Source: Myxococcota bacterium (GTDB lineage: Bacteria > Myxococcota_A > Polyangia > JAAYKL01). Taken from it: 64,000 nucleotides of DNA. Location of the stretch: NCBI GenBank assembly GCA_028278265.1, contig JANQET010000236.1, forward strand, positions 801-64,800, given 5' to 3'. Shown here one piece after another: positions 7,043 through 46,679 of this stretch. Under the pieces are notes generated by a model, which saw only the letters and a program-made list of their open reading frames with translations, was not told the DNA's origin and ran no database searches. Positions within the stretch are counted from its first letter, which is position 1; each line of letters begins with the position of its first letter. The translations under genes and the position numbers were made by a program.

Positions 7043-7116
7043 CGCACGGGGGGATGCCAGCGTATAATTTAGCGGGATCTTTATTGCGCGATACGCTAAG
7101 TTGGTCGTCAGGTTAA

Positions 7117-32731: not shown

Positions 32732-32973
32732 CGTCTGTTTCTCCTGTCCTCTGCAGTGATGAGATGCGTTATCAGACCCGTAAACGGTGTCGTCTATAAG
32801 CCTATATACCAGACAGGCGTTTGCAAAAAAATACCCTTCCTTCCCGTTGCCGCCGATAGCTGTGACCACCGGTGGGTCGCCGGTCGATGCGGTCGCCCGG
32901 TTTTTGGTCCAGGCCTTGCTTTTGAGTGGAGAGCGCAACAAAATCCCGAGACGGCCCATGGCCTGTGAGCTGA

Positions 32974-33744
32974 ATGACCGCTGAGTTTTCAAAAAGAGGA
33001 GCCGATAACGTGTTGAAAGAAAAGACCGTTCTGATCACCGGCGGCACCGGCGCAATCGGGTCGGCCCTGTGCCGAATTGCTGCTGAACAGGGGGCCAGTG
33101 TGGCCTTTACGTATCACCGCAACCGGGAAACAGCAGATGAGTTGCAAGGGGAGCTGGAGCGCAGGGGGGGTCGCGTCATCGGCCGATCTGTCGAGGCGAC
33201 GGACGGTGCTGAGGTGACCGCGTTTGTGGAACAGGTGACCGCCGAGCTCGGGTCGATCGATGTGCTGGTCAACAACCTGGGGGTGACCCAGGTGATGCCT
33301 TTCGCCCTCATCGAGGAGGAGGATTGGGATCAGCTGATCGAGACCAATCTCAAGGGATTGTTTCTGTTTTCCAAGGCGGTGGTGCGGACGATGGCGCGGC
33401 GCAAATCGGGAGTGATCGTCAACATCGGCTCGGTGGCCGGTCACCGGATCATCGAAGTGCCGGTTCACTACGCCACGGTCAAGTCCGCCGTGGCAGGGTT
33501 TACCACTTCCCTGGCCGGAGAAATGAAACGGTACGGGGTGAGGGTCAATGCGGTGGCGCCCGGGTTGATCGATGGGGGGATCGGCCACAATGTCTCGGCC
33601 CGTCAACTGGAGGAGTACAACCGGTTCTGCGCGCTCGGCCGACCCGGTACCCCTGAGGAGGTGGCCCACCTGGTCCTCTTTTTGGCTTCGGATAAAGCGT
33701 CGTACATCAACGGCCAAGTCATTTTCACCGATGGGGGAATTTAA
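32974..33744 (+). CDS. SDR family oxidoreductase (FabG-like 3-oxoacyl-ACP reductase)
   Basis: TGGTGAIGSA Rossmann motif and YxxxK/NNLGV motifs. Immediately followed (1 nt) by a radical SAM gene. Confidence 0.85.
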   Translation: MTAEFSKRGADNVLKEKTVLITGGTGAIGSALCRIAAEQGASVAFTYHRNRETADELQGELERRGGRVIGRSVEATDGAEVTAFVEQVTAELGSIDVLVNNLGVTQVMPFALIEEEDWDQLIETNLKGLFLFSKAVVRTMARRKSGVIVNIGSVAGHRIIEVPVHYATVKSAVAGFTTSLAGEMKRYGVRVNAVAPGLIDGGIGHNVSARQLEEYNRFCALGRPGTPEEVAHLVLFLASDKASYINGQVIFTDGGI

Positions 33745-35166
33745 ATGAGCTGCTGTCAAATCGGAGGGGACGAACAGACCTTCTTGTCGGCCACCAAGGG
33801 GATGTGCCGTGAGTGCCGGGAAATAGTGGACGCCCGCTACGTGGCCCGTGGGGAGCGGGTTTTTTTGGAGCGCCATTGTCCGAGTCACGGAAAACAGACC
33901 GCGTTGGTGGCCCGACGGCTTTCATCCTATTTGGAGATGATGCGCACCCCGCCCGGAGGGCAACCGCCCCGGCGCGTTCTGACCGAGCGGCAAGGGGGAT
34001 GCCCCACCTCCTGTGGCCCCTGCTCCTTTCACGGGCAAAACTGCCATCTCCCGGTCTTCTCGATCACCAACGCCTGTGATCTGCGCTGCCCTATTTGTTT
34101 TACCTACAACCGGACGGACCAGACCTTTTTCATGTCTGAAGAGGCGTTTGTCGAGCAGATCGATTTTGTGATCGACGCGGCAGGACCGGTCGACCTGGTC
34201 AACATCACCGGCGGGGAGCCCACCTTGCACCCGGAGTTGCCCCGGCTGTTGCGCCACGCCCGGCGACCGGAGATCGGCCGAATCACCGTCAACACCAACG
34301 GGTTGAACCTGGCCCGGAATCCCGGATTGGCCAGGGAGCTGGCCGATTTGGGCGTCTACTTGATCCTCTCTTTCGATACCTTTAATCCCCGGACGAGCCA
34401 AGCGATTCACGGCCGGGATATCGTCGAAGCCAAGCTCTCGGCGCTCGAAACAGCGGAGCGGTACGGTATTCCAACCACTTTGTTGATGGTGCTGATCAAG
34501 TCGGTCAACGAAGCGGATTTGGCGCCGGTGGTGGAGCTGGCCCTGTCCCGTGACATCGTTCGCTCCCTGACGATCCAGACGATGACCTACACCGGACAGG
34601 GGGGTGGCGAGTTCCTGCCGCGGGCCCATCTGCCGGTGGACGAGGTGGAGGAGCTGATCGAAGCTGCCACGTCGGGCCGAATCCCCCGCGCGGCATTCAT
34701 GCCGTTACCCTCGGCCCACCCACTGTGCTACGGGGTGGCCTACCTGATGTCCCACGGTGGGGCGACCCATTGCCTGACCGAACTGCTCGACAAATCGACC
34801 ATCGGCCAATATCTCCAAGAGGGTTACCTGCTGCGGCCTTCGGACGAGCTGGAGATCGAGCTCAAACAGGCGATCGACCGCCTGTGGAGCGAAGGGGGAG
34901 ACCCGGAGGTTCTCTCGACCCTCAAGTCGATGATGACGGACCTCTTTCCCGCCCAACCGATCACCGTCGCCGAACGCCAACGACGGGCGGAAAAACAGTT
35001 GAAGACGATCTACGTGCACGCCCATATGGACGAGGACACTTGGGAGCTGGGCCGCGCCGTGCGCTGTCCGGATCAGGTGCCGGTGGATGGCAAGCAGCTG
35101 ATCGGTGCCTGCAACTACAACCTGTTCTATCGCATGCGAGATGAGCGATTTTGGGTGACCCGATGA
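33745..35166 (+). CDS. radical SAM enzyme with N-terminal Cys-rich (zinc-ribbon/rubredoxin-like) domain, paralogue A
   Basis: N-terminus CC...CRECRE...HCPSHG and CPTSCGPCSFH; radical SAM NACDLRCPIC (CxxxCxxC); GGEPTLHP. Confidence 0.85.
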   Translation: MSCCQIGGDEQTFLSATKGMCRECREIVDARYVARGERVFLERHCPSHGKQTALVARRLSSYLEMMRTPPGGQPPRRVLTERQGGCPTSCGPCSFHGQNCHLPVFSITNACDLRCPICFTYNRTDQTFFMSEEAFVEQIDFVIDAAGPVDLVNITGGEPTLHPELPRLLRHARRPEIGRITVNTNGLNLARNPGLARELADLGVYLILSFDTFNPRTSQAIHGRDIVEAKLSALETAERYGIPTTLLMVLIKSVNEADLAPVVELALSRDIVRSLTIQTMTYTGQGGGEFLPRAHLPVDEVEELIEAATSGRIPRAAFMPLPSAHPLCYGVAYLMSHGGATHCLTELLDKSTIGQYLQEGYLLRPSDELEIELKQAIDRLWSEGGDPEVLSTLKSMMTDLFPAQPITVAERQRRAEKQLKTIYVHAHMDEDTWELGRAVRCPDQVPVDGKQLIGACNYNLFYRMRDERFWVTR

Positions 35167-36650
35167 ACCGTTTGAACAACGCCGCCGGTATGGTGGACGA
35201 GATCTGTCACAGCGCGACTCAGGGGTTGTGCAACACCTGCGGACAACTGACCGACGCCCGGATCGTTTTTCGTGGCGAGCAGGTGGTGCTGCAGAAGTGG
35301 TGTCTCGAGCACGGACAGACCGAGGCGCTGATCTGTTCGGACAAGGCGTGGTATTTGTCCTCTGGGGGATTCGTCAAGCCGGGCACCGAACCGCGGCAAC
35401 GGGCGGTGACCGAGTTCAACGGCTGCCCCGACTCCTGCGGGTTGTGTCCTGAACATCAACAGCACACCTGTGTGCCGATCGTGGAGATCACCGATCGCTG
35501 CAATCTGGCCTGCCCGATCTGTCTGGTCCGCGATCGCTGCGAGCAGGAGCTCACCGTGGCCCAGGCGAGCGCGATGTTCGATCGGTTGGTGCGGTACGAA
35601 GGTCAGATCAACATGGTGACCCTGAGCGGCGGAGAGCCGACCGTGCATCCCCACCTGCTCGACATTGTCGACGCGGCCCGGGAGCGGCGTGAGATCGGCG
35701 TCGTTTCGGTCTCCACCAACGGCGTGGCCCTGGCCCGCGACGACGACCTGCTGCAGGCCTTGGTGGATCGGGAGGTGGTGATCTCCCTGCAGTATGACGG
35801 GCACTCCGCTGACGTCTACCGAATCCTGCGCGGGGACCCGGCATTGGCCGAGCTCAAACAGAGGTTGATCGAGCGGGTGGTCGAGTTGGGCGGCCTGCTC
35901 TCACTGACAGTTACCCTGGCCCGCGGCATCAACGAGGACCAGTTGTCCGGCGTGCTAGAGCGGTTTTTTGGCCACGATCAGATCTTGAGCATCATGGTGC
36001 ACCCCCTGGCCTATCGCCCCCGTCAGACGCCGGAGATCGCTTGCGATCCTTCCGATATCATCACCATCCCCGATGTGGTGCGCTTGCTCAGCGAGCAATC
36101 CGGCGGCCGATTGGTCCGGTCCGATTTTGTGCCGCTGCCCTGCTCCCATCCCAGCTGTTTCGCCCTGACCTACGTGCTCAAGACCGATGACGGCAAGTTC
36201 GTCTCATTACCCCGGTTGATCGACCTCGAGACCTATCTCGACGTGATCAAGAACCAGGCGCTGCTCAGCACGGATGCTGAAAACCTGGGCAAGATCAAGG
36301 ACGCCATCTACGCGCTGTGGTCGGCGCAAAACGCGGTCCCTGATCAGGAGAGCGTGCTGCGGACCGTGCGGCAGATCCTGCTGCAGATGAACCGGCTGGG
36401 AAATGATACACCCTCGCCGCGGGATGCGCTGTCCCTGGGGCTGCGGCATGTCAAATCGATTTTCATCCACCAGTTCATGGATCGGGCCACCTTTGATCTG
36501 TCGCGGGCGATCAAGTGCTGCAACCACTACCCTGGGGCCGACGGCCGATTGCAGCCCGTTTGTGTGCGCAACACCATCACCGCGCCGCGGGCGACGTCGG
36601 GCGGAGCTGGGCGCGAAAGAACCACAACACCAGACCCACCCCGAGGGTGA
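35151..36650 (+). CDS. radical SAM enzyme with N-terminal Cys-rich domain, paralogue B
   Basis: CNTCGQ...WCLEHG, CPDSCGLCPEH, DRCNLACPIC, GGEPTVHP. Collinear similarity to paralogue A; overlaps it by 16 nt. Last ~25 aa are low-complexity. Confidence 0.82.
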   Translation: MGDPMNRLNNAAGMVDEICHSATQGLCNTCGQLTDARIVFRGEQVVLQKWCLEHGQTEALICSDKAWYLSSGGFVKPGTEPRQRAVTEFNGCPDSCGLCPEHQQHTCVPIVEITDRCNLACPICLVRDRCEQELTVAQASAMFDRLVRYEGQINMVTLSGGEPTVHPHLLDIVDAARERREIGVVSVSTNGVALARDDDLLQALVDREVVISLQYDGHSADVYRILRGDPALAELKQRLIERVVELGGLLSLTVTLARGINEDQLSGVLERFFGHDQILSIMVHPLAYRPRQTPEIACDPSDIITIPDVVRLLSEQSGGRLVRSDFVPLPCSHPSCFALTYVLKTDDGKFVSLPRLIDLETYLDVIKNQALLSTDAENLGKIKDAIYALWSAQNAVPDQESVLRTVRQILLQMNRLGNDTPSPRDALSLGLRHVKSIFIHQFMDRATFDLSRAIKCCNHYPGADGRLQPVCVRNTITAPRATSGGAGRERTTTPDPPRG

Positions 36651-37395
36651 TCAGCAGCTCGGTGAGCTCCTCCCAGAAGTCGAGCCAGACCGGCGTGCGG
36701 GCAAAGGCGGTGACCAGACAGAAGCGAAACCAGGAGAACAGCCAAAACCCCAGCCCGACGAAAAATGGCCCCTTGGCCCTGGCCGGTGCCGTGGCAGCTC
36801 CCCAGAGCAGCCCGGCCGTGGCGACGAAGCACCCCGCGGCGATGATCGGGAAGAGGCGAAAATTGAGCCAGATCAAGAACGGAGAGTAAGTGTAGCGCAC
36901 CTCGCTGCCGAAGACTGTGCCGAGGTGATCGTAGGGGGCGATGGTCGCGGTCAGCGGCAGCAGGGCGACCACGGCAAAAAACAGGGCGGCGAAGATCATC
37001 AATCGCTTGAGGCCGCAGGGGACATCGTGTTGCTTGTAGCATCGACCGCAGAACCGCTGAAGCACACACCTCTTTTGCGAATCGATAAAACCGATGACCT
37101 GGGTGTCGAATAGGGTCAACAATCCCCAGGGGACAAAGATACCCATCGCCACCATGCCCAAATCGTGCATCCCGTCGAGCCAATCGCTGGCCCCACCGGC
37201 AGAGAGAAAATTGAGCGCACAGGCCGCCTCACCGAGCCAAAACGCAGCCAAGCCGATGCAGAGGGTCGTTCGGCCCGAAAAGACGGGTTTGCGGGCAAGG
37301 GCGAGTATCCCGAGGACCAACACCATGTAGATCGGTTTGATGATGAGCCCGGAGGTGAAGGCCAGGTACTGCTCAAACGGCGTGAACAGTATCAT
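36577..37395 (-). CDS. polytopic membrane protein with conserved Cys cluster
   Basis: At least 7 hydrophobic helices. CVLQRFCGRCYKQHDVPCG loop. 3' end overlaps the paralogue-B 3' end by 74 nt (convergent). Confidence 0.5.
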   Translation of the reverse strand: MILFTPFEQYLAFTSGLIIKPIYMVLVLGILALARKPVFSGRTTLCIGLAAFWLGEAACALNFLSAGGASDWLDGMHDLGMVAMGIFVPWGLLTLFDTQVIGFIDSQKRCVLQRFCGRCYKQHDVPCGLKRLMIFAALFFAVVALLPLTATIAPYDHLGTVFGSEVRYTYSPFLIWLNFRLFPIIAAGCFVATAGLLWGAATAPARAKGPFFVGLGFWLFSWFRFCLVTAFARTPVWLDFWEELTELLITLGVGLVLWFFRAQLRPTSPAAR

Positions 37396-37727
37396 CGCCG
37401 GTCAATTCTGGTCTGAGATGACGCTGCCATATTGCATGACGATCGTGCGATCTGCCTGATTTGTCAATTGGCTGTCGTGGGTGGCGATATTGGTGACCTG
37501 AACCCCCACGCCGATGATCACCGCCACCATCACCAGACCAAAAGAAAATCGATTCTTCTTGAGCGACTGAAGCGCCGGAAATGCAAAGATGCTGAGGTCG
37601 GACTGGGTTCCTTCGGGCAACGGGTTCTCCTTTTGCTGCTCGGAGCAGGCTGCAAAAACTCGTTCCGACAATTGGCGCGATTTGTGCGGTTTGAGAATGG
37701 GTTGATCGGTGGTATCGAGGGAGCAGT

Positions 37728-38756
37728 ATGTGGCGATCGGTGCGCAACTATTGGTATTTGCGGCTGGCTGGGGTCACCCCGACGCGATGGCGCCCCTTGC
37801 TCGCGGTCTACTACTTGACCTATGCCTGCGATTTCAGATGCCCCTATTGCGCGGACGGCGCGAACCGTCCGTACTATCGGCTCGATTCGCCGACTCTCGA
37901 CGCGGACGGGGTCGTCGAGCTGCTCACCACCGTGCGGCGATACTGTGACCACTTGGTGCTCACTGGCGGTGAGCCGCTGAACCACCCGCAAGTGGACGAA
38001 ATTCTCCGCGCACTTTCGCCACTTGGATTTCGCAGTGTGGTGTTGACGACCAACGGGTATGACTTGGCGCCCCGGCTGGCCGGCGTGCTGGAGGCGGTGG
38101 ATCACCTGGTGATCAGCCTGGACACCTTGGATCGGGCCAAGGCAGACGGCTGGTACGGGGTGGGAGACGGGGCCCTGGACCGCATTCTGGCCACCGCCCT
38201 AGAGGCCGAAGCCAGGCGCTCGGCCAGCAGCACTGAGATCATCGTCTCGGCTGTGGTGACCCCCCACAACATTGCCGATTTGTACGAGGTCTATCAGTTC
38301 TGTCAAACCAATGGGCTTCGCTTTGCCGCCTCTCCCCAATTGGAGGGGGTCAAGGTACATCCCGATTTGATCGACAACGGGCCTTACCGGACGCTGTTCG
38401 ACTTTTTGCTCGAGGAGAAGAAAAAGGGTCGGGCGATCAACGGGACGCCCCTCTACCTGCAGTACATGCGCGATCTGAAGGCGTTTCGCTGTTTCCCTTC
38501 CGCCACCCTTGCCGTGTCACCCGTCGGAGAGGTCTTTTACCCCTGTCTGGAGCGGGGCACCAAGGGGGGCAACTTGCTTCAGGAGCCGGACCTGGATCGG
38601 ATTCGGCAACAGGCGATCGAGCGATTCGGCCCCGAGCCCAGCTGTGACAACCGCTGCCACTCCGCCTGTGCTCTGAGTTTCGGGCTCATTCTGGGACGGC
38701 CGTGGAGCATGGCCCCCGAGGCGCTGATTCAGCTCAAATCAAGATGGCATCGTTGA
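37728..38756 (+). CDS. radical SAM enzyme (SPASM/twitch-like C-terminal Cys motifs)
   Basis: YACDFRCPYC, LTGGEPL, C-terminal CDNRCHSAC. Confidence 0.8.
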   Translation: MWRSVRNYWYLRLAGVTPTRWRPLLAVYYLTYACDFRCPYCADGANRPYYRLDSPTLDADGVVELLTTVRRYCDHLVLTGGEPLNHPQVDEILRALSPLGFRSVVLTTNGYDLAPRLAGVLEAVDHLVISLDTLDRAKADGWYGVGDGALDRILATALEAEARRSASSTEIIVSAVVTPHNIADLYEVYQFCQTNGLRFAASPQLEGVKVHPDLIDNGPYRTLFDFLLEEKKKGRAINGTPLYLQYMRDLKAFRCFPSATLAVSPVGEVFYPCLERGTKGGNLLQEPDLDRIRQQAIERFGPEPSCDNRCHSACALSFGLILGRPWSMAPEALIQLKSRWHR

Positions 38757-39773: not shown

Positions 39774-39776
39774 CGC

Positions 39777-40769: not shown

Positions 40770-41173
40770 GGGGATTCTCCAAGCTTCCGCGCGATGGACT
40801 TGGCCACCTCCTCGGCAGTCAGCAGAAAGGCGAGCTGCTTGATCGTCGTGCCCTCCACCAGGGACGCCTCTGCTCGGGGAAAGCGCTCCCGCAGCATGGC
40901 CAGCGCCCGCGGGGTCAGCACCTCGTCCCGGTGCAGCTCAGCCTCGGCCAAGCCGAGTTGCGCCGACAGGCTCATGTCCTGTTTGTCCAGCTTGATCTCG
41001 AACTCCTGTTCGAGCAGAAACATCAGCTCCACCAGATCGAGGGACTCGGCGCCCAGGTCGTTCATCAGGGTCGATTCCGCGGTGATGGCGGACGGCTCGA
41101 GGGCCAGTACTTCGGCGATGCAGTTGTTGACGCGCGCTTGAATGTCGTTTTTTCCGGTGGCTTCGGTCATCAA
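40766..41173 (-). CDS. acyl carrier protein (extended C-terminus)
   Basis: LGAESLDLVEL phosphopantetheine-attachment (DSL) motif. Start ATG overlaps the ketoreductase stop (ATGA). Confidence 0.8.
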   Translation of the reverse strand: MMTEATGKNDIQARVNNCIAEVLALEPSAITAESTLMNDLGAESLDLVELMFLLEQEFEIKLDKQDMSLSAQLGLAEAELHRDEVLTPRALAMLRERFPRAEASLVEGTTIKQLAFLLTAEEVAKSIARKLGESP

Positions 41174-41910
41174 TATCCTCCGTCCACCGGCACTACGGCG
41201 CCGGTGATATAAGCTGCATCATCCGAGAGCAAGAATGAGACCACCTTGGCGATCTCGTCCACTGTGCCGAATCTGCGCAGAGCGATACTATCGGTGATCG
41301 CATCCCCGGCGAGCGTCCTGACCGCCCGGGACATTTTGGTCTCAATCACACCGGGGGCCACAGCGTTGACGCGGATCTGCTTGGGACCCAATTCGACGGC
41401 GAGGGCACGGGTGAACGACTCGACAAATCCCTTGGTACCGGCGTAGACGGCATTGCCCCGATTGGGCCGGGTCGCTGCCACCGAAGAGATGTTGATCACA
41501 CTGCCCCGTTTTTGGCGCATCATCGGACGCAGCACCGCCCGGGTCAGGCGGACCATTCCCGCGATGTTGGTCGCGAGCATCGCCTCCAGATCCTCGTCCT
41601 CGAGGAGCGCCAGCAGTTCCTCGCGAACAACTGCGGCATTGTTGACCAGACCGTGGATCGTATCAAACGCTTCGACGGAACGATCGACGATCTGTTGGGC
41701 GCAGTCCGGTTCACAGATATCCCCGCGGACGAGAATCACCCGGGACCCCCGGTCACGGCACCGGGCCTCGACGCGATTGGCCGCCTTTTTATCCCGGTGG
41801 TAACAGAGCACCAGATTGGTCCCGGCACCTGCCAGTGACTTGGCCAGGGCCGCTCCGATGCCCCGGGAGGCACCGGTAATGATTAGCGTTCTTGTGTTAT
41901 TTTTTTTCAT
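41170..41910 (-). CDS. SDR ketoreductase (3-oxoacyl-ACP reductase-like)
   Basis: TGASRGIGAA, NAAV, YAGTK. Start at M48 of the track ORF (ATG 41910). Confidence 0.85.
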   Translation of the reverse strand: MKKNNTRTLIITGASRGIGAALAKSLAGAGTNLVLCYHRDKKAANRVEARCRDRGSRVILVRGDICEPDCAQQIVDRSVEAFDTIHGLVNNAAVVREELLALLEDEDLEAMLATNIAGMVRLTRAVLRPMMRQKRGSVINISSVAATRPNRGNAVYAGTKGFVESFTRALAVELGPKQIRVNAVAPGVIETKMSRAVRTLAGDAITDSIALRRFGTVDEIAKVVSFLLSDDAAYITGAVVPVDGGY

Positions 41911-41944
41911 TTCGTTGTCTCGAACCTCGTTGAACAGGACCGTG

Positions 41945-43225
41945 TTACGGTGACCATTGCCCGGCAACGATGCAGGCATTTTGGCCGCCGAACCCGAATG
42001 AATTTGACATGAAGTGCTCCACAGTCGCCTGGCGCGGCGTGCCGGGCACATAGTCCAGATCGCACTGGGGATCCGGGGTGACCAAATTGATCGTCGCCGG
42101 GAGAAGCTGCTCGTTCAGGGCAAACAGGCCGGCGATGAACTCCACCGCACCGGCGGCGCCGATCAAGTGACCGATTTGACTCTTGGTGGAGCTGACCGGA
42201 ATCTGCCTTGCCCGGGAACCGAACACCTTCTTGATCGCTCGGGTCTCGGCCGGATCGTTTTTACGGGTTCCCGTGCCGTGGGCATTGATGTAGTCCACCT
42301 GGGCCGGGGAAAGCCCTGCCGAGGCCAGTGCCCCCCTCATCGCGCGAATTGCGCCGGCCTGATCCGGGGCGGGATCGGTCACCCGGTAGGCGTCCATCGA
42401 CGAGCTGTAGCCCAACACCTCTCCGTGAATGGTGGCCCCCCGGGCCAGCGCCGACTGGGCGTTCTCCAGGATACAGAATCCCGCGCCTTCGCCGAGCACG
42501 AAACCGTCCCGGTGTTTGTCGAACGGGCGGGACGCACCGGGTCCCAAATCGTTGGCCGTGGAGAGGGCTTCCAGCATGCAGAACCCGCCCACGCCGAGGG
42601 GATTGAGCATCGAGTCGTAGCCCCCGGTGACGGCCACGTCCAGCACCCCTTGGCGGATCGCGAGGAAGGCCTCGCCGAGGGCTTGGGTGCCGGCGGCGCA
42701 TGCGGAGACGTTGACCTGAACCATCCCACCGGCACCGGTCAGCCGGGCGATCGCCCTCGCCCCGAGGTCCGCGGGGATCTGGAGGTTCGTGAACACGGGG
42801 GTGTCAAAGAGGTGGTCGCGCAGCGCCCGGCCGTCGATCGCGCCGTCGGAGAACAGGGGCACCAAATCGTCGAGGTGAAAAATTTCCAACCCCGCGGCGG
42901 CAACAACCCCTACCCGCTCCTCGGGGTAGCATCGGCTGATCGGAACATCGCCGAAAGCGGCAGCCAGCGCTTGACGAGCGGCTGTGACGCCGAAGGCCGA
43001 CTTGGGATCCGCGCTCAGGGCAGATCGCTCCCGGTCCGACAATCCGGTGGTATCCAGGTCAAACCCGTTGACCTCTGCGCCGATTCGGGTCGGAAAACGC
43101 CCCGCATCGAACGAGGCGATGCGATCCACACCGGCCCGTGCGGATCGCAAGCCGTCGAAAAACGGCCCGATTCCGATGCCGATCGGAGCGACCACCCCCA
43201 TCCCGGTGACCACGACCCTAGGCAC
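41945..43225 (-). CDS. beta-ketoacyl-ACP synthase (KAS I/II-like, catalytic Cys-His-His present)
   Basis: VSACAAG (Cys), NAHGTGT (His), QIGHLIGAAG (His). Confidence 0.9.
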   Translation of the reverse strand: MPRVVVTGMGVVAPIGIGIGPFFDGLRSARAGVDRIASFDAGRFPTRIGAEVNGFDLDTTGLSDRERSALSADPKSAFGVTAARQALAAAFGDVPISRCYPEERVGVVAAAGLEIFHLDDLVPLFSDGAIDGRALRDHLFDTPVFTNLQIPADLGARAIARLTGAGGMVQVNVSACAAGTQALGEAFLAIRQGVLDVAVTGGYDSMLNPLGVGGFCMLEALSTANDLGPGASRPFDKHRDGFVLGEGAGFCILENAQSALARGATIHGEVLGYSSSMDAYRVTDPAPDQAGAIRAMRGALASAGLSPAQVDYINAHGTGTRKNDPAETRAIKKVFGSRARQIPVSSTKSQIGHLIGAAGAVEFIAGLFALNEQLLPATINLVTPDPQCDLDYVPGTPRQATVEHFMSNSFGFGGQNACIVAGQWSP

Positions 43226-44417
43226 CTGAGCCCTCCTCGGGGGCGAGCGCCAAGGCGAACTGAGCCCCGTCCGCGTCCCCGGCAGAAATCAGGTAGCACC
43301 GATCCGTTGAATCGATCGGCGCGTTGCCTGGGGGGTCGCCCGTCAGCACCAATGCCACGGCAAAGAACACCCCGGCCGGACCGAGCTCCCCCAGGGCGCC
43401 GTCGAACGACACCAGCCTGGCACGCTCCGTTTGGGGGAAGGCGTCCCGCTGGTCTGCTTCCGCGATATCGGCCGTGCGATCCGGGTTGCCGCAGGAAACG
43501 ATTCGGCTGGGTTGCCGGTTGCCCAGCGCCCTTGCCCAGTGCCGGCGGCGAACCGCGTACAGCTCGTCCGGTGTGGTCCCCTCGCTTCGTCCATGGGAGA
43601 CGCCGAGTACACGGGCGCGGATTGGCGTGCCCCTCCGAGCAGCCGTTCCGCGGGTTGTCATGACGAATAATCCGGCACCGTCGGCCGGGGCGATGCCGCG
43701 GTGCTGCGGCTCGAAAGGAACCGCCTGTTCGACCGTTTCGGCGAGCCGTCCCAGGCGCAGTTGGGTGCACAGTGTCATCAAGCTGAACCCCTGGGAAGCG
43801 GCTCCGACCAGCACCTCGGTGAAGCGGCCCTCGACCAATCCCCGGGCGGCAGTCTCCAAGCAGGCGCCGGCCTGATCCACACTGGGATAGGTGACGAAGT
43901 TGGGCCCTTTGAGATTGAAACAGATCGAAATCAAGCCCACCGGCATATTGAGCAGCGATTTGAACGGCATCAGCGGATGGCAGGCACCCAACCCCTCTGT
44001 TCCCATCCGCTGCAGATCGAGGGTGCCGTCCGGGGCCTTGGACCGCTCCACCGCGCGGCTCACCGAGGAGAGATCGAACACGGTCATTCCCACCGCGGCA
44101 AACAGCCCCATCGGTTGAAGCACATCGTCGCTGTCGATCACTCCCGCGTCGCTCAACGCTCGGCCGGCGGCGATCACCGAAAGTGACGTGGTCTGGCTCA
44201 TGTACTTGGCCAATTTCCGATCGGGCAAAAACGGCGCTGGCGAGGCGGGCTCTGCCGTCGCACCCGGACAAGGGGGAAAGGCGTCGACCCCCGCGGGAAT
44301 AGCCATGGACAAGGCGCTGCGTCCCTGCTTGATCGCCGACACGGTGGCGGACAGGTCGCCGAACGGACCGTGCAGGCCCACGCCGGTGATGACCACATCC
44401 CCGTCGGATCCGGGCAT
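43218..44417 (-). CDS. ketosynthase-like protein lacking the catalytic Cys (chain-length-factor-like partner)
   Basis: Thiolase-fold KS-like sequence, but the active-site position reads SVDQAGA with no Cys/His triad. Start at M134 of the track ORF (ATG 44417), which overlaps the dehydratase stop. Confidence 0.72.
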   Translation of the reverse strand: MPGSDGDVVITGVGLHGPFGDLSATVSAIKQGRSALSMAIPAGVDAFPPCPGATAEPASPAPFLPDRKLAKYMSQTTSLSVIAAGRALSDAGVIDSDDVLQPMGLFAAVGMTVFDLSSVSRAVERSKAPDGTLDLQRMGTEGLGACHPLMPFKSLLNMPVGLISICFNLKGPNFVTYPSVDQAGACLETAARGLVEGRFTEVLVGAASQGFSLMTLCTQLRLGRLAETVEQAVPFEPQHRGIAPADGAGLFVMTTRGTAARRGTPIRARVLGVSHGRSEGTTPDELYAVRRRHWARALGNRQPSRIVSCGNPDRTADIAEADQRDAFPQTERARLVSFDGALGELGPAGVFFAVALVLTGDPPGNAPIDSTDRCYLISAGDADGAQFALALAPEEGSGA

Positions 44418-44881
44418 CACTCGACGACCTTCATTTCTCGGGTGATCAGGTCGAGGTACTGTTTGCCGAACGTGTCCAGCTCCGGGTCGTCCACGTGGAG
44501 CATGACGTAAATGATATCCGCTTGGCACACCTTGTCCCCGTCCCGGGAACCGATCACTTTGACGAATCCGGAATCCTCGTGGTGCGACTGGATCTCGGCC
44601 CTCACCGACAGCTTGTCTCCCGGTTTGACGAAGTCGCGAAATTTGGCCTTGACTGAGCTGAGCACGCAGCGGGGCACATCCTCTTGGCGATCGCGGAGGG
44701 AGAGCTCGATCAGCGCTCCTCCTAGCTGGGCCATCGTCTCGATCAACAGGGCCCCCGGGTAGATCGGCTGACCCGGATAGTGGTACTCGAAACAGTCGTC
44801 CGCCAGGGTGATGCACTTCGAGGCCACCGCGTAGTCGAATTTTTTGATTTCCTCTATTCGGTCAATCAGTAGGTATCGCAT
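44417..44881 (-). CDS. FabZ/FabA-like beta-hydroxyacyl-ACP dehydratase (hot-dog fold)
   Basis: YHYPGQPIYPGALLIETMAQLGG is a classic FabZ motif. Confidence 0.82.
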   Translation of the reverse strand: MRYLLIDRIEEIKKFDYAVASKCITLADDCFEYHYPGQPIYPGALLIETMAQLGGALIELSLRDRQEDVPRCVLSSVKAKFRDFVKPGDKLSVRAEIQSHHEDSGFVKVIGSRDGDKVCQADIIYVMLHVDDPELDTFGKQYLDLITREMKVVE

Positions 44882-44899
44882 GGGTTCATACCGACCTCG

Positions 44900-45571
44900 T
44901 CAATCCAAATAGGTGATTAGCCGCGCCAGGGGCCGCCGCTCCGGCGCCGCGGGCCGGTGTTGGGCGTAGCCCAGCGGAATCAACGCGGCGATTTCCCAAC
45001 TGCGGGGCACCTCGAGCAATTTACTGAGTGAAGTCCTAGCAAAAAGTGGACCGGTCATCCAGCAAGCGCCCAAGCCGAGGGTATGAACCGCGAGCAGGAG
45101 GTTCATAATCGCCGCGGAGACAGCGGCCAGTGAATCGGCATCCGCCTTGAGGGGGCCCCGATCGTCGCTGTGGGTCCCCCCGGTGATCATCGTCAGAAAA
45201 TCGGTCCCCTCTCGATAGCTGCGATAGATCGGCGCGATGACCAGGGGGGCCTGGGCAAAGTGCATGAAATTGCCCGAGTAGCGGGCAAACTCCTCGCGAA
45301 ACTCGGGCCGGACGTGTTGCAGCAACGCCTCGACGGCCCGGGCCACCGCCTGATCCATGCGGGCGAGCATCGCCGGGGATTGGACCACGATGAACCGAAA
45401 GCCCTGGCGATTGCCCCCGCTGGGAGCCCATCTGGCCGCTTCGAGCACCTGCTCGATCAGTTGTCGGGGCACCGGATCCGGTTTGAACTGCCGGATGCTG
45501 CGTCGCTGGGAGATCAGTTCCATCAGCTGTCGGTGAGAATTGTTCACAGGATCACCTCGTTGTTCCATCAT
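44900..45571 (-). CDS. nitroreductase-family flavoprotein
   Basis: RRSIRQF...WAPSGGNRQ nitroreductase signature. First gene of the minus-strand operon. Confidence 0.75.
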   Translation of the reverse strand: MMEQRGDPVNNSHRQLMELISQRRSIRQFKPDPVPRQLIEQVLEAARWAPSGGNRQGFRFIVVQSPAMLARMDQAVARAVEALLQHVRPEFREEFARYSGNFMHFAQAPLVIAPIYRSYREGTDFLTMITGGTHSDDRGPLKADADSLAAVSAAIMNLLLAVHTLGLGACWMTGPLFARTSLSKLLEVPRSWEIAALIPLGYAQHRPAAPERRPLARLITYLD

Positions 45572-45719
45572 CGGATGGCCAAAACGTAAGGGTGAGACCC
45601 GTCGAAGTCAACGGGAGGTGGATCGTCCCGCGGCGACTGAACGGGCGTCCGGTCCGACAGGAGAGCTTGAAAAAAAGATCGGTTTGCTCCACCCTCAACT
45701 GGAAAGTGAAGCACAAAAA

Positions 45720-46679
45720 ATGAGTGGACAATCGACAAAGAAGCGATCGAGCGGACGCCTCTGGATGGCCTTTGATTTGAAACAATTGGCTGTTTTTATC
45801 GAAGTCGTTCGCTGTGCCAGTTTCTCCGGTGCAGCGCGGTCGTTGAATCTGGCGCAAGCCTCGGTGAGTGAGCGAATTTTGACCTTGGAGGAATCGGTGG
45901 GCACCCGCTTGCTCGACCGGTTGGGCCGCAAGGTGATCCCCACCAGCGCCGGGGAACTGTTGCTGCGACGAGGACGCGAATTGCTGGAGCTGCAGAACGA
46001 GACCGAGCGAGAGCTGCGGGAGCTGCTCGGCCTGAGCAAGGGGGAGGTGTCGTTGGGGGCGAGCACCACACCCGGCGAGTACATCCTGCCCGGGGTGATC
46101 CAGCGATTCAAACGCCGACATCCGGCAATCGGTGTGCGCATGCTGATCGGCGACTCCCTCTCGATTACCCGCCGCGTCGAAGATGGGACGCAGGAGTTCG
46201 GCGTGGTGGGATTCCGCGAGGAGAGTGAACAACTGAAGTTTCAAGCGTTGGCCGACGATGACATCGTACTGGTGGTCGCCGGCAACCATCCCCTGACAGC
46301 CCGACGGGGGCCGGTCTCCCCGGAGCAACTCGAAGATCAGCCGATCGTGCTGCGGGAATCCGGGTCGGGTACGCGGGCCAATGCGATGCGCCCGTTGACC
46401 GCGATCTTCAAGAAATCCGGAGTCGGCTGGAAAAACGTGACCGAGTTGGGCAGCTCCACCGCGGTCAAGGAGGGGGTCAAAGCGGGGCTGGGATTTGCAC
46501 TTCTATCGCGGCGGGCGATTCGCGCCGAGCTGGCGTCGTCGTCGTTGAAAATTGTCGAAATGAAGGGATTGCCGATCAAGCGCAAATTTTACCTCGTGAC
46601 CGACAAGCGGCGAACCCTCTCCCCGGCGGCGCGGGCTTTCAGCCGGTTTCTGCTCGACAACAGAAAACATCTCGACTGA
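45720..46679 (+). CDS. LysR-family transcriptional regulator (divergent from the biosynthetic operon)
   Basis: LKQLAVFIEVVRCASFSGAARSLNLAQASVSERILTLE HTH plus LysR substrate-binding domain. Start could instead be 45765. Confidence 0.8.
   Translation: MSGQSTKKRSSGRLWMAFDLKQLAVFIEVVRCASFSGAARSLNLAQASVSERILTLEESVGTRLLDRLGRKVIPTSAGELLLRRGRELLELQNETERELRELLGLSKGEVSLGASTTPGEYILPGVIQRFKRRHPAIGVRMLIGDSLSITRRVEDGTQEFGVVGFREESEQLKFQALADDDIVLVVAGNHPLTARRGPVSPEQLEDQPIVLRESGSGTRANAMRPLTAIFKKSGVGWKNVTELGSSTAVKEGVKAGLGFALLSRRAIRAELASSSLKIVEMKGLPIKRKFYLVTDKRRTLSPAARAFSRFLLDNRKHLD

What the first reader, a model, noticed from the sequence alone, without database searches (positions are those of the whole stretch)
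32974..46679. Candidate ~13.7-kb biosynthetic gene cluster: four radical SAM enzymes plus a dedicated type-II FAS/PKS-like module
Gene order on the minus strand is nitroreductase, FabZ-like dehydratase, KS-like protein with no catalytic Cys (CLF-like), ketosynthase with an intact Cys-His-His triad, SDR ketoreductase, acyl carrier protein, alpha/beta hydrolase and a radical SAM. Most consecutive starts and stops overlap (ATGA), indicating translational coupling. A third radical SAM lies convergently, a Cys-motif membrane protein sits in the middle, and upstream on the plus strand are an SDR and two tandem paralogous radical SAMs with N-terminal Cys-rich domains. A LysR regulator is divergently transcribed from the minus-strand operon. 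A KS/CLF/ACP/KR/DH set next to four radical SAM enzymes does not correspond to housekeeping fab genes, nor to any well-known cluster type I can recall (aryl-polyene clusters lack radical SAMs; ladderane-type clusters are from a different phylum). It suggests a dedicated acyl/polyketide chain that is C-C cross-linked, methylated or cyclised by radical chemistry, i.e. an unusual lipid or small metabolite.
Basis: partly seen in the sequence, partly recalled or inferred. Interest (0 to 1): 0.85.

Follow-up and report, generated by a model that had tools for sequence, protein, structure and literature searches.

The report
Orphan lipid cluster with paired Tes-like enzymes
This is a real, widely conserved but uncharacterised gene cluster of uncultured bacteria that joins a private fatty-acid-type assembly line to two relatives of the archaeal enzyme that welds lipid tails together, so it probably makes an unusual radical-tailored lipid that nobody has yet seen.

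Summary
Window 32974-45571 carries 13 tightly packed genes:
- an SDR;
- two paralogous radical SAM (rSAM) enzymes;
- a 7-TM Cys-rich membrane protein;
- two SPASM-like rSAMs;
- an alpha/beta hydrolase;
- a long ACP, a KR, a FabF-like KS with an intact Cys-His-His triad, and a CLF-like partner lacking the triad;
- a FabZ-like DH and a nitroreductase-fold flavoprotein.

The two tandem rSAMs are full-length homologues of the archaeal tetraether synthase Tes/GDGT-MAS (PDB 7TOL). All four metal sites are conserved.

Synteny is conserved in about 30 loci from MAGs and metagenomes of at least six phyla. In an NJ tree the cluster-linked TesA and TesB form mirrored sister clades. Solitary bacterial Tes homologues form a separate clade and have no cluster FAS-module gene within the up-to-10-kb flanks fetched.

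The LysR gene belongs to the adjacent Sec-type selD, not to the cluster.

No paper in the searchable library describes this cluster.

Best reading: a dedicated ACP-bound acyl chain is cross-linked by Tes-type C(sp3)-C(sp3) coupling.

Minority reading: sulfur insertion, suggested by recurrent rhodanese and NifS partners in related loci.

The product is unknown. Verdict: new variant of a known kind, interest about 0.7.

The parts
32974..33744 (+). FabG-like SDR (second ketoreductase-type enzyme), abutting TesA with no gap
   Evidence: Pfam adh_short_C2 E=3e-57. NCBIfam 3-oxoacyl-ACP reductase 219.6 bits, below the 297.75 cutoff. YxxxK at Y166. An SDR lies immediately upstream of TesA in clade-1 and variant-3 loci; in clade 2 the SDR follows TesB.
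33745..35166 (+). TesA: radical SAM enzyme of the Tes/GDGT-MAS family (paralogue A)
   Evidence: Zn_ribbon_HMPTM plus Radical_SAM. 7TOL E=1.5e-35, aligned over residues 17-335 plus a weak C-terminal stretch. NCBIfam Tes 188.5 bits versus cutoff 450, and TrsS 207.8 versus 490. Motifs CxxC...CxxH, GCPTSCGPCSFH, C111-x3-C-x2-C and the C-terminal Cys/Met are present. Orthologues of 56-62% identity in clade-1 loci.
35163..36650 (+). TesB: radical SAM enzyme of the Tes/GDGT-MAS family (paralogue B); ATGA overlap with TesA
   Evidence: 7TOL E=1.3e-54, aligned over residues 5-477. NCBIfam Tes 221.4 versus cutoff 450, and TrsS 241.9 versus 490. Motifs GCPDSCGLCPEH, C117-x3-C-x2-C, FMD and KCC...VC. 1335 homologues at E<=1e-20, all from MAGs or metagenomes among those carrying a source name. 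Forms its own clade mirrored by TesA.
36577..37395 (-). 7-TM membrane protein with a cytoplasmic Cys4 loop (C110, C116, C119, C127) and a WEELTEL motif; a partner of the Tes-like enzymes
37728..38756 (+). Small radical SAM enzyme (rS5) with C-terminal Cys motifs (twitch/SPASM-like); a variable accessory gene
   Evidence: Radical_SAM E=9e-16; weak MoaA, PTO1314 and HpnH-like hits, all far below cutoffs. CX3CX2C at residue 34. Orthologues of 51-55% identity in L006-L010, L012, L014, L034 and L040; absent from L001.
38739..39773 (-). SPASM-like radical SAM enzyme (rS6), last gene of the minus-strand operon
   Evidence: Radical_SAM E=1.5e-17. Best NCBIfam hits are NirJ2, MftC, PTO1314 and ScmF at 75-87 bits, all below cutoffs. 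CX3CX2C at residue 31 and C-terminal C-x12-G-x4-C...CxxCxxxC. Orthologues in clade 1; a 33-36% homologue lies directly upstream of DH in clade 2.
39777..40769 (-). Alpha/beta hydrolase (candidate thioesterase or acyl-transferase for off-loading)
   Evidence: Weak Abhydrolase_6/1 hits. GFSFG nucleophile elbow at residue 123. Orthologues of 25-33% identity in L001, L006, L008-L010, L012, L014, L034, L035, L059 and L061.
40766..41170 (-). Dedicated acyl carrier protein with a conserved C-terminal extension of about 55 residues
   Evidence: PP-binding E=7.5e-10, covering residues 14-67 only. ACP NCBIfam models all score below cutoff. The ESLD serine and the extension are conserved in all variants aligned.
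41170..41910 (-). FabG-like ketoreductase (KR)
   Evidence: adh_short_C2 E=2.8e-62. 3oxo_ACP_reduc 229.8 bits versus cutoff 297.75. YxxxK at Y156.
41945..43225 (-). FabF-like ketosynthase with an intact active site
   Evidence: fabF TIGR03150 420 bits (cutoff 493.75). Subfamily NF005589 401 bits, above its cutoff of 387. Cys176/His316/Lys348/His353. Best PDB match is B. subtilis FabF at 322 bits, against act KS 254, 9s5h_B 257 and Iga11 190.
43218..44417 (-). CLF-like KS homologue without the catalytic triad, overlapping the DH stop and the KS start
   Evidence: Only the N-terminal ketoacyl-synt domain is detected. Cys->Val/Ala, His->Cys/Thr, Lys->Asp and His->Glu across the family. 54 representatives at E<=1e-30 among 1.84 billion.
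44417..44881 (-). FabZ-type dehydratase (orthologues carry precomputed Pfam ApeI-like hits)
   Evidence: FabA-like domain E=3e-18. fabZ 95.7 bits versus cutoff 155. Catalytic His (HYPGQP, residue 34) and Glu (IETMAQ) are present. ApeI-like Pfam hit on orthologues.
44900..45571 (-). Nitroreductase-fold flavoprotein, first gene of the operon; candidate C=C reductase or dehydrogenase
   Evidence: Nitroreductase E=4e-37. BluB 85 bits and FbiB C-terminal domain 67 bits, both below cutoffs. PDB relatives include FbiB-C (4xom), albonoursin synthase (8uc3) and, weakly, the fatty-acid enone reductase CLA-ER (4qlx). Sits before DH in clade 1 and between KR and ACP in clade 2 and variant 3.

Best explanation
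The block is a dedicated, conserved biosynthetic gene cluster for a radical-SAM-tailored, fatty-acid-type lipid of unknown structure.

**Proposed course**
1. The FabF-like KS pairs with the inactive CLF-like subunit. Together they prime by decarboxylating malonyl-ACP and elongate to a length set by the CLF, on the cluster's own long ACP.
2. KR and the FabZ-type DH process each round. The nitroreductase-fold flavoprotein stands in for the missing enoyl reductase, or sets the double-bond pattern.
3. The second SDR and the two Tes/GDGT-MAS-type rSAM paralogues then act on the finished chain. Each cleaves SAM, abstracts H from an unactivated sp3 carbon, parks the radical on a sulfide of its C-terminal [4Fe-4S] cluster and joins it to a second carbon radical. 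Two non-equivalent C-C bonds are made, one per paralogue. The result is a cross-linked lipid: tail-to-tail dimeric, macrocyclic or ring-bearing.
4. The SPASM-like rSAMs add further modifications.
5. The hydrolase off-loads the product.
6. The 7-TM Cys4 protein docks or supplies the Tes-like enzymes at the membrane.

**Shown:** gene identities, catalytic residues, metal-site conservation, and synteny with co-evolution.

**Inferred:** the heterodimer, the ER-like role of the nitroreductase, the substrate, the C-C chemistry and the product.
For: - **Families and residues.**
- **Tes homology.** TesA and TesB are full-length homologues of the structurally and biochemically defined GDGT-MAS, 7TOL. 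They keep the rubredoxin-like site, the N-terminal cluster motif, the rSAM motif and the C-terminal Cys/Met ligands described for Tes.
- **Synteny from the CLF side.** 18 of 26 genome loci found with the CLF alignment carry a Tes-like gene within 10 kb. Most of the others are cut by contig ends.
- **Synteny from the TesB side.** The cluster-type homologues (about 37-59% identity) are usually paired with TesA and an SDR. Where the contig is long enough they lie next to DH-CLF-KS-KR-NR-ACP. About 47 of the 49 more distant homologues (L063, L065-L113) stand alone with none of the FAS-module genes (KS/CLF/DH/KR/NR/ACP); three carry a stray SDR- or Mem-like hit.
- **Co-evolution.** An NJ tree gives a solitary bacterial Tes clade and sister TesA and TesB clades with mirrored topology. 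That pattern indicates an old duplication and co-evolution.
- **Range.** The cluster occurs in genomes from GC 0.47 to 0.76.
- **KS/CLF precedent.** An anammox FabF/FabFmut pair forms a KS/CLF-like heterodimer that decarboxylates malonyl-ACP (bioRxiv 10.64898/2026.05.19.726425).
- **Nitroreductase precedent.** Nitroreductase-fold enzymes are known to perform C=C redox.
- **Lipid-type neighbours in some loci.** PlsA/Ger-like genes, a MacB-type ABC exporter, a patatin, a hexapeptide acyl/acetyltransferase and an MprF-TM-like protein.
Against: - There are no experimental data and no known product.
- TesA and TesB score less than half the NCBIfam Tes cutoff, so their chemistry may differ.
- The window has no enoyl reductase of a known type and no glycerolipid acyltransferase.
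- The recurrent sulfur-trafficking partners (rhodanese fused to the membrane protein; a NifS-rhodanese fusion in L059/L061) are not needed for C-C coupling.
- The distant clade-2 version carries class-III aminotransferases, an FMO-like enzyme and an MFS fusion. These look more like small-metabolite tailoring.
- L033 has the Tes pair without KS/CLF within 10 kb, and L019 has the reverse.
- The NJ tree has no support values.
Confidence: 0.5

Rival explanations
1. Sulfur insertion rather than C-C coupling. The Tes-like paralogues stop at the carbon-sulfide(cluster) adduct that is an intermediate in Tes. They deliver one sulfur each into the ACP-bound chain, in the manner of LipA or BioB, giving a thiol-, dithiolane- or thioether-bearing lipid or cofactor. 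The dedicated sulfur-relay proteins rebuild the sacrificed cluster.
For: - Tes forms a substrate-S adduct with its C-terminal cluster when SAM is limiting.
- 15 of 23 homologues of the 7-TM partner carry a rhodanese domain, and the three fused sequences inspected keep an active-site Cys.
- The rhodanese fusion is present in L006, L008-L010, L012, L013, L038 and L042-L044.
- L059 and L061 place a NifS-type cysteine desulfurase-rhodanese fusion directly upstream of DH-CLF-KS (NifS model 370.7 bits, below its 530.75 cutoff).
- A dedicated ACP plus rSAM is the logic of lipoate synthesis (own knowledge).
Against: - The window copy and L001 lack the rhodanese domain, and no remnant is present.
- The fused rhodanese follows a lipoprotein signal and so is probably periplasmic, away from the cytoplasmic rSAMs.
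- A NifS could simply serve the heavy Fe-S load of roughly 8-10 clusters.
- The NifS fusion was seen in only one lineage.
- The Met ligand and the Cys pattern of the Tes C-cluster are unchanged, so no sequence feature argues for a sacrificial role.
Confidence: 0.15
2. An aryl-polyene-like or highly-reducing type II PKS pigment or small metabolite. KS/CLF, KR and an ApeI-like DH with no ER make a polyene on the ACP. The rSAMs and the flavoprotein cyclise or tailor it into a secreted or outer-membrane small molecule rather than a bulk membrane lipid.
For: - Precomputed Pfam ApeI-like hits on DH orthologues.
- No canonical ER in the cluster.
- Weak hits to cispentacin AmcF, AmcE and AmcB and to the flexirubin FlxB models.
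- Clade 2 carries aminotransferases, an FMO-like enzyme and an MFS fusion.
- L001 carries an ABC/MacB exporter.
Against: - The KS is nearer to true FabF than to type II PKS KS enzymes.
- No starter-unit genes (ammonia lyase or CoA ligase), no thioesterase of the ApeK type and no LolA/MMPL export set were found.
- All NCBIfam APE, flexirubin and cispentacin models score far below their cutoffs.
- The only characterised chemistry of the Tes family is on saturated lipid tails.
Confidence: 0.15
3. General membrane-spanning lipid (brGDGT or diabolic-acid type) synthesis. The Tes-like enzymes couple the tails of ordinary membrane phospholipids. The adjacent FAS-like genes only supply or adjust the acyl pool.
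For: - Bacterial Tes homologues have been proposed as brGDGT synthases (PMC8941075; PMC11868695).
- The loci come from named Acidobacteriota, Myxococcota and Planctomycetota MAGs.
- PlsA/Ger-like ether-lipid genes lie beside the cluster in two loci.
Against: - The solitary Tes homologues form a separate clade without these neighbours. They dominate the more distant TesB homologues returned by the metagenome scan, which makes them the better brGDGT candidates.
- Tight operon coupling of the ACP, SDR and Tes pair argues that the special chain is the substrate.
- No branched-chain primer enzyme (FabH) is present.
Confidence: 0.1
4. Coincidental adjacency of a spare fab operon and unrelated rSAM genes.
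For: High-GC genomes carry many rSAM and fab paralogues. L019 and L033 show that the modules can be apart.
Against: The same 9-13 gene set recurs in three or more gene orders, in at least six phyla and across a GC range of 0.47-0.76, with co-diverging TesA, TesB and CLF.
Confidence: 0.02

Closest known systems
Archaeal tetraether synthase Tes / GDGT-MAS (M. jannaschii, PDB 7TOL)
   Same: TesA and TesB share the full four-domain layout: a rubredoxin-like Zn-ribbon, an N-terminal GCPxxCGxCxxH cluster site, the CX3CX2C rSAM core, and a C-terminal cluster with Cys and Met ligands. E-values are 1e-35 and 1e-54.
   Different: - Sequence divergence is high (visual estimate about 30% identity), and scores are less than half the NCBIfam cutoff.
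- The genes are bacterial.
- They always occur as a co-evolving pair, sometimes a trio.
- They are operon-linked to an ACP-based synthase and an SDR, not to isoprenoid ether-lipid genes.
Anammox 'ladderane' Cluster I (amxACP, amxFabZ, amxFabFmut/amxFabF2, PDH, B12-rSAM)
   Same: A dedicated ACP, a FabZ variant, a dead KS encoded just upstream of a live KS (a KS/CLF-like pair), and rSAM enzymes in a fab-type operon.
   Different: - There is no phytoene-desaturase-like gene and no B12-rSAM in the window.
- The rSAMs here are Tes-type and SPASM-type.
- A nitroreductase-fold protein and two SDRs are present.
- KS and DH are no closer to the presumed anammox entries than to ordinary FabF and FabZ.
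- A B12-rSAM neighbour in L059 scores 50 bits on TIGR04072, whose cutoff is 360.
Aryl-polyene / highly reducing type II PKS modules (ApeI, ApeO/ApeC, ApeQ, ApeE/F; Iga11/12; cispentacin AmcB/E/F)
   Same: KS plus CLF-like partner, KR, ApeI-like DH and a discrete ACP, with no canonical ER.
   Different: - The KS is FabF-like (Iga11 scores only 190 bits).
- There are no starter, thioesterase, glycosyl- or acyl-transferase, or LolA/MMPL genes.
- Several rSAMs are present, which those clusters lack.
Solitary bacterial Tes homologues (Acidobacteria and others; proposed brGDGT synthases)
   Same: Same protein family; 33-36% identity to TesB.
   Different: They form a separate clade, occur as single genes and have no cluster FAS-module neighbours; three carry a stray SDR- or Mem-like hit. 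Their function is also unconfirmed.
Mss, the bacterial membrane-spanning lipid synthase (Thermotoga, Thermoanaerobacter)
   Same: An rSAM enzyme that joins two fatty-acid tails. It shows that ketoacyl-derived chains can be substrates for such coupling.
   Different: No sequence was available here, so homology was not tested. Mss acts alone on ordinary membrane fatty acids.
LipA / BioB sulfur-inserting rSAM enzymes
   Same: As a functional analogy only: a carrier-bound medium-chain acyl substrate, an auxiliary cluster that contacts the substrate carbon, and sulfur-supply partners nearby.
   Different: No sequence relationship. Sulfur insertion by a Tes-family enzyme has never been shown.

Membership tests
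Tes / GDGT-MAS (NCBIfam NF045702) | Score at or above the curated equivalog cutoff (450 bits) | tested here: not met
   TesA 188.5 bits and TesB 221.4 bits.
Tes / GDGT-MAS (NCBIfam NF045702) | Four-domain architecture with a rubredoxin-like Fe site, [4Fe-4S]N, [4Fe-4S]RS and [4Fe-4S]C ligands | tested here: met
   Alignment to 7TOL is full-length for TesB; for TesA it covers residues 17-335 plus a non-significant C-terminal stretch. All ligand motifs are present in both paralogues, by inspection of motifs.
Tes / GDGT-MAS (NCBIfam NF045702) | Couples terminal carbons of archaeol-type diether lipids to give GDGT or macrocyclic archaeol | not testable with these tools
   Needs enzymology and lipidomics. 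The genomic context is ACP/FAS-type, not isoprenoid.
TrsS radical SAM (seleno)protein (NF045646) | Score at or above the cutoff (490 bits) | tested here: not met
   207.8 and 241.9 bits. No in-frame TGA is needed to read either gene.
KS/CLF heterodimer (type II PKS logic) | Active KS with a Cys-His-His triad | tested here: met
   Cys176, His316 and His353, plus Lys348.
KS/CLF heterodimer (type II PKS logic) | Adjacent KS homologue lacking the catalytic Cys and His residues | tested here: met
   Val/Ala, Cys/Thr, Asp and Glu/His/other at those columns in 12 family members. The gene overlaps the KS start by 8 nt.
KS/CLF heterodimer (type II PKS logic) | Gln at the position of the active-site Cys in the CLF | tested here: inconclusive
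   A Gln lies two residues downstream in most but not all members. The alignment register is ambiguous.
KS/CLF heterodimer (type II PKS logic) | Physical heterodimer that controls chain length | not testable with these tools
   Needs co-purification or a multimer model.
Anammox ladderane Cluster I | Phytoene-dehydrogenase-like gene and B12-dependent rSAM alongside ACP, FabZ, FabFmut and FabF2 | tested here: not met
   No such domains occur in 32974-45571.
Anammox ladderane Cluster I | KS and DH specifically related to amxFabF2 and amxFabZ | tested here: not met
   KS: B. subtilis FabF 322 bits against 9s5h_B 257 bits. DH: Campylobacter FabZ 70 bits against 8ayc/7qv0 43-47 bits. Assigning those PDB entries to anammox is my inference from their names.
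Aryl-polyene BGC | APE-type KS pair, ApeI DH, ApeQ KR and ACPs, plus ApeH starter enzyme, ApeK thioesterase, acyl- or glycosyl-transferase and LolA/MMPL export genes | tested here: not met
   Only a generic KS/CLF/KR/DH/ACP set is present. None of the accessory families is found in the window.
Housekeeping type II FAS (fab operon) | Equivalog-level FabF, FabG, FabZ and AcpP, with FabD, FabH and FabI | tested here: not met
   fabF 420 versus 493.75, FabG 230 versus 297.75, FabZ 95.7 versus 155.15 and ACP 50.5 versus 70.45. Only the broad FabF subfamily NF005589 passes (401 versus 387). No FabD, FabH or FabI is present.
Mss (bacterial membrane-spanning lipid synthase) | Homology to T. maritima or T. 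ethanolicus Mss | not tested
   No Mss sequence was retrievable with the tools.

The most novel reading that the evidence does not exclude
The paired Tes-like enzymes may be sulfur-inserting rather than C-C-coupling. Each would transfer a sulfide from its C-terminal [4Fe-4S] cluster to an unactivated carbon of a chain held on the dedicated ACP. The cluster would be replenished through the rhodanese-fused 7-TM partner and, in some lineages, a NifS-rhodanese fusion. The cluster would then make a previously unknown class of organosulfur lipid or lipoate-like cofactor in uncultured soil and sediment bacteria. It would also reveal a second catalytic outcome for the Tes fold.
Probability: 0.15. Interest if true: 0.9.

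Novelty: new variant of a known kind. Interest (0 to 1): 0.7.

Why it matters
**An untested prediction.** The function of bacterial Tes homologues is an open question that bears on the origin of bacterial membrane-spanning lipids used as palaeoclimate proxies. It is explicitly described as untested (PMC8941075, PMC11868695).

**What this cluster adds.**
- It defines a distinct, co-evolving TesA/TesB subfamily that is hard-wired to its own ACP, KS/CLF pair and reductive enzymes.
- It therefore supplies both the likely substrate and the enzymes for a direct test by heterologous expression or in vitro reconstitution with the cognate acyl-ACP.
- It offers a second, independent system, besides anammox, in which a FabF/CLF-like pair feeds radical chemistry.

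**Possible outcomes.** The result would be a new lipid class: cross-linked, cyclic or sulfur-bearing. It would also show whether Tes chemistry extends to carrier-bound fatty chains.

Tried and rejected
1. **Source organism not identified.** Exact-sequence look-ups for TesB and the CLF failed. Cluster-member look-up gave only unnamed singletons on a 64,891-nt NCBI contig.
2. **First rarity estimate was misleading.** The word-index search gave 16 CLF homologues, an underestimate caused by the prefilter. It was replaced by the exhaustive search: 54 representatives at E<=1e-30.
3. **LysR/selD as part of the cluster: rejected.** Neither gene occurs in any of the 113 related loci.
4. **A rhodanese remnant upstream of the window's membrane gene: none found**.
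5. **Specific kinship to anammox proteins: not supported**.
7. **Promoter and terminator scan:** at chance level.
8. **Rfam and tRNA scans of the whole window:** empty.
9. **Flanking ORFs as cluster members.** 29107-32028 and 32240-32992 have no Pfam hits and no counterparts in the genome-derived related loci L001-L033; the later metagenome loci were not searched for them.
10. **Literature.** Searches for the gene combination found no description. The library covers only open-access papers and bioRxiv.

**Method caveats.**
- ORF calls in the loci are heuristic.
- The NJ tree has no bootstrap support.
- The NJ tree's outgroup, 7TOL, was rebuilt from a printed alignment.

Full report
**1. Observation**

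Plus strand:
- a FabG-like SDR (32974-33744);
- two tandem radical SAM (rSAM) paralogues (33745-35166 and 35163-36650). They are 31% identical, and each has an N-terminal Zn_ribbon_HMPTM domain;
- a small rSAM (37728-38756).

Minus strand, in transcription order:
- nitroreductase (44900-45571);
- FabZ-type DH (44417-44881);
- CLF-like KS homologue (43218-44417);
- KS (41945-43225);
- KR (41170-41910);
- ACP (40766-41170);
- alpha/beta hydrolase (39777-40769);
- SPASM-like rSAM (38739-39773);
- separately, a membrane protein (36577-37395).

Catalytic residues were checked as follows.
- The KS keeps Cys176, His316, Lys348 and His353. The CLF-like protein and 11 relatives have Val/Ala, Cys/Thr/Gly, Asp and Glu/His/other at those columns.
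- All four rSAMs have CX3CX2C. The DH keeps its His and Glu. The ACP keeps its serine. Both SDRs keep YxxxK. The hydrolase has GFSFG.
- Junctions are tight: 0- to 8-nt overlaps or gaps at six of eight junctions. The literal 'ATGA' motif holds only for TesA/TesB.

**2. Boundaries**

The LysR gene (45765-46679) scores 244.6 bits on the NCBIfam 'selenium metabolism-associated LysR' model, just under its cutoff of 250. It is followed by selD (46780-47838). That gene has an in-frame TGA in the GAG-U-ASK motif, with a hairpin just downstream. Neither gene appears in any related locus. Neither do the two upstream ORFs that lack Pfam hits, although those were checked only against the genome-derived loci L001-L033. 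The cluster is therefore 32974-45571: 13 genes in 12.6 kb.

**3. What the tandem rSAMs are**

Both are full-length homologues of the archaeal tetraether synthase GDGT-MAS/Tes (7TOL), with E=1.5e-35 and 1.3e-54.

The 2026 review of lipid rSAM enzymes describes four metal sites in Tes:
- a rubredoxin-like Fe site (3 Cys + His);
- [4Fe-4S]N (3 Cys + His);
- the rSAM cluster;
- [4Fe-4S]C (3 Cys + Met), whose sulfide traps the first substrate radical before C(sp3)-C(sp3) coupling.

The corresponding motifs are present in both paralogues: CxxC...CxxH; GCPxxCGxCxxH; CX3CX2C; and HPxC, (F/H)MD, RC(C) and xC-x-(R/Y)N.

Both paralogues score less than half the NCBIfam cutoffs for Tes (188/221 versus 450) and TrsS (208/242 versus 490). 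They belong to the Tes fold and family but are not Tes equivalogs.

**4. Synteny**

*Small-scale look-ups.* A CLF-based look-up gave a Deltaproteobacteria MAG (L001) that conserves 11 of the 13 genes at 33-67% identity. TesA matches TesA and TesB matches TesB. Further contigs conserve NR-DH-CLF-KS-KR-ACP.

*Genome scan.* A scan of GTDB species genomes with a CLF alignment returned 26 loci. All but one are MAGs. They come from Myxococcota (Polyangia, Anaeromyxobacter, Haliangium, Labilithrix), 'Deltaproteobacteria', Acidobacteriota, Rokuibacteriota, Planctomycetota, Elusimicrobia and Betaproteobacteria. Eighteen carry a Tes-like gene within the fetched flanks. Most of the others are cut by contig ends.

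*Metagenome scan from the TesB side*.
- Homologues at about 37-59% identity (L034-L062, plus the truncated L064) are usually paired with TesA and an SDR.
- In 13 loci with enough sequence, these lie beside DH-CLF-KS-KR-NR-ACP.
- About 47 of the 49 more distant homologues (L063, L065-L113) stand alone, with none of the FAS-module genes (KS/CLF/DH/KR/NR/ACP). L069 carries a rhodanese-Mem gene, and L107 and L112 each carry a stray SDR-like hit.

*Three gene orders occur.*
- Clade 1 is the window type.
- A colinear variant reads DH-CLF-KS-KR-NR-ACP-SDR-DH2-TesA-(hexapeptide transferase)-TesB-Mem-Tes3.
- A distant clade 2 reads TesA-TesB-SDR-aminotransferase-SDR-rS6-DH-CLF-KS-KR-NR-ACP.

*Range and abundance.* Host GC spans 0.47 to 0.76. 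An NJ tree places the solitary bacterial Tes homologues in one clade. TesA and TesB form sister clades with mirrored internal topology (no support values). An exhaustive search finds only 54 CLF-type representatives at E<=1e-30 among 1.84 billion, so the system is rare but recurrent. Coincidental adjacency is excluded.

**5. The assembly module**

- The KS is nearer to true FabF (B. subtilis, 322 bits) than to actinorhodin KS (254), 9s5h_B (257; presumed anammox) or Iga11 (190). It passes only the broad FabF subfamily cutoff.
- The DH is FabZ-like, and its orthologues carry ApeI-like Pfam hits.
- There is no FabD, FabH, FabI, FabK or FabV.
- The nitroreductase-fold protein is embedded in the module in every variant. 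It sits before DH in clade 1 and between KR and ACP elsewhere.
- Its solved relatives include enzymes of C=C redox: the FbiB C-terminal domain, albonoursin synthase and, weakly, the fatty-acid enone reductase CLA-ER. I infer an enoyl-reductase-like or desaturating role. This is not shown.
- The ACP family has a conserved extension of about 55 residues after the PP-binding core.
- A recent preprint shows that the analogous anammox FabF2/FabFmut pair is a KS/CLF-like heterodimer that decarboxylates malonyl-ACP. I use this as precedent, not as evidence of membership.

**6. Accessory parts**

*The 7-TM protein.*
- It has no family hit.
- Its alignment shows invariant C59, C110, C116, C119 and C127, and a WEELTEL motif.
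- The positive-inside rule puts the Cys4 loop in the cytoplasm (inference).
- Fifteen of its 23 homologues carry an N-terminal rhodanese domain. The fused examples inspected also have a lipoprotein signal and keep an active-site Cys.
- The fusion is present in many cluster loci and in one solitary-Tes locus, L069. The window copy lacks the domain, and no remnant is present.

*Other sulfur and methylation genes.* In L059 and L061, a NifS-type cysteine desulfurase fused to rhodanese sits directly upstream of DH (NifS model 370.7 bits, below its 530.75 cutoff). A B12-rSAM and a methyltransferase follow TesB.

*Neighbours in other loci.* These include PlsA/Ger-like genes, a MacB-type exporter, a patatin, PMT_2, and an MprF-TM-like protein. 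They also include FMO-like enzymes with an MFS fusion and class-III aminotransferases.

**7. Mechanism**

*Best-supported model (confidence about 0.5).*
1. KS/CLF, KR, DH and NR build a chain of defined length on the long ACP.
2. The SDR and the two Tes-type enzymes then make two non-equivalent C(sp3)-C(sp3) bonds by the Tes mechanism. Paralogue multiplicity argues for non-equivalent bonds, as with GrsA/GrsB in archaea (own knowledge).
3. The SPASM-like rSAMs tailor further.
4. The hydrolase off-loads the product.
5. The 7-TM protein serves the Tes-like enzymes at the membrane.

Whether coupling is between chains (bola-type) or within a lipid (macrocycle or ring) cannot be decided here.

*Rivals.*
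- Sulfur insertion via the known Tes C-S adduct, supported only by the sulfur-relay partners (0.15).
- An APE-like polyene metabolite (0.15).
- General brGDGT-type coupling of ordinary lipids (0.1). The separate solitary-Tes clade and the operon coupling to the ACP argue against this.
- Chance adjacency (0.02).

**8. Comparison and novelty**

The cluster fails the membership tests for Tes equivalogs, TrsS, anammox Cluster I, aryl-polyene clusters and housekeeping FASII (see the membership table). It works most like two known systems. One is anammox Cluster I (private ACP, KS/CLF pair and rSAM). The other is Tes (radical tail coupling).

Literature searches found no description of this gene combination.
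- Zeng et al. and Ding et al. treat bacterial Tes homologues as untested single genes.
- The 2026 review lists only ladderanes and the Jaw5 product as rSAM-modified ketoacyl lipids.
- Surveys note unexplained antiSMASH 'ladderane' clusters in Myxococcota, Desulfobacterota and other phyla. The broad class is therefore a known unknown.
- Rattray et al. described other fab+rSAM clusters in Deltaproteobacteria with different accessory genes.

I rate this a new variant of a known kind. All hosts but one are uncultured. Betaproteobacteria bacterium GR16-43 (complete genome, L028) carries the distant clade-2 version and is the most accessible entry point.

**9. Limits**

- Nothing here identifies the product.
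- The source organism of the window is unknown.
- ORF calls in the loci and the tree are heuristic.
- antiSMASH could not be run.
- The paper library covers only open-access papers and bioRxiv.

Noticed in passing
window 46780-47838 (+), TGA at 46828-46830; LysR 45765-46679 (+): selD (selenophosphate synthetase) is read through an in-frame TGA in the GAG-U-ASKLGPGDL motif, with a GC-rich hairpin about 17 nt downstream (SECIS-like). It is preceded by a LysR that scores just under the NCBIfam 'selenium metabolism-associated LysR' cutoff. The ORF listing start at 46903 therefore truncates the gene.
   Followed up: yes
window 36577-36650: The window's TesB has a C-terminal tail of about 25 residues that orthologues lack. 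The tail overlaps the convergent 3' end of the membrane-protein gene by 74 nt. It could be a real overlap or a lost stop codon.
   Followed up: partly
P0144-P0160; L006, L008-L010, L012, L013, L038, L042-L044, L069: Most homologues of the 7-TM Cys-rich protein carry an N-terminal rhodanese domain; a lipoprotein signal was seen in the fused examples inspected. The window and L001 copies do not carry the domain. One solitary Tes homologue (L069) also has this fusion next to it, which ties the protein to Tes-like enzymes rather than to the FAS module.
   Followed up: partly
L059:1773-3368 and L061:2-1336; L059:10778-12759: A NifS-type cysteine desulfurase fused to rhodanese lies directly upstream of DH-CLF-KS in a low-GC lineage. 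A B12-binding rSAM and a SAM methyltransferase lie downstream of TesB.
   Followed up: partly
L039, L041, L044 (also L040, L046, L048): A colinear variant of the cluster has a second FabZ-like DH after the SDR. It also has a hexapeptide acyl/acetyltransferase between TesA and TesB and a third Tes paralogue after the membrane gene. The transferase's best weak hits are WcaF and heptaprenylglyceryl-phosphate O-acetyltransferase.
   Followed up: partly
L015, L020, L025-L028, L053: The distant clade-2 version carries one or two class-III aminotransferases between two SDRs. It also carries an FMO-like flavoprotein (fused to an MFS transporter in L025) and an MprF-TM-like protein (L028). This hints at an amino-functionalised product.
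   Followed up: partly
L001:1-182 and the JGI contig (genes at 5362-7264): BcrAD_BadFG/HGD-D/DUF2229 genes lie beside the cluster in two loci. This is the family of the plasmalogen synthase PlsA and the glycerol ester reductase Ger.
   Followed up: no
L063, L065-L113: About 49 solitary bacterial Tes homologues (33-41% identity to TesB) have none of the cluster's FAS-module genes within the fetched flanks and form a separate clade. These are the 'bacterial Tes homologues' discussed as brGDGT candidates.
   Followed up: partly
window 29107-32028 (-) and 32240-32992 (-): A 973-aa ORF and a 250-aa ORF directly upstream of the cluster have no Pfam hit and no counterpart in the genome-derived related loci (L001-L033).
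   Followed up: partly
window 47892-48890 (+), 48927-50219 (+): A flavin-reductase/glyoxalase-domain fusion protein and an adenylate/guanylate cyclase-domain protein follow selD. No link to the cluster was found.
   Followed up: no
window 1-64000: There are no tRNA genes and no Rfam family hits at gathering thresholds in the whole 64-kb window.
   Followed up: yes
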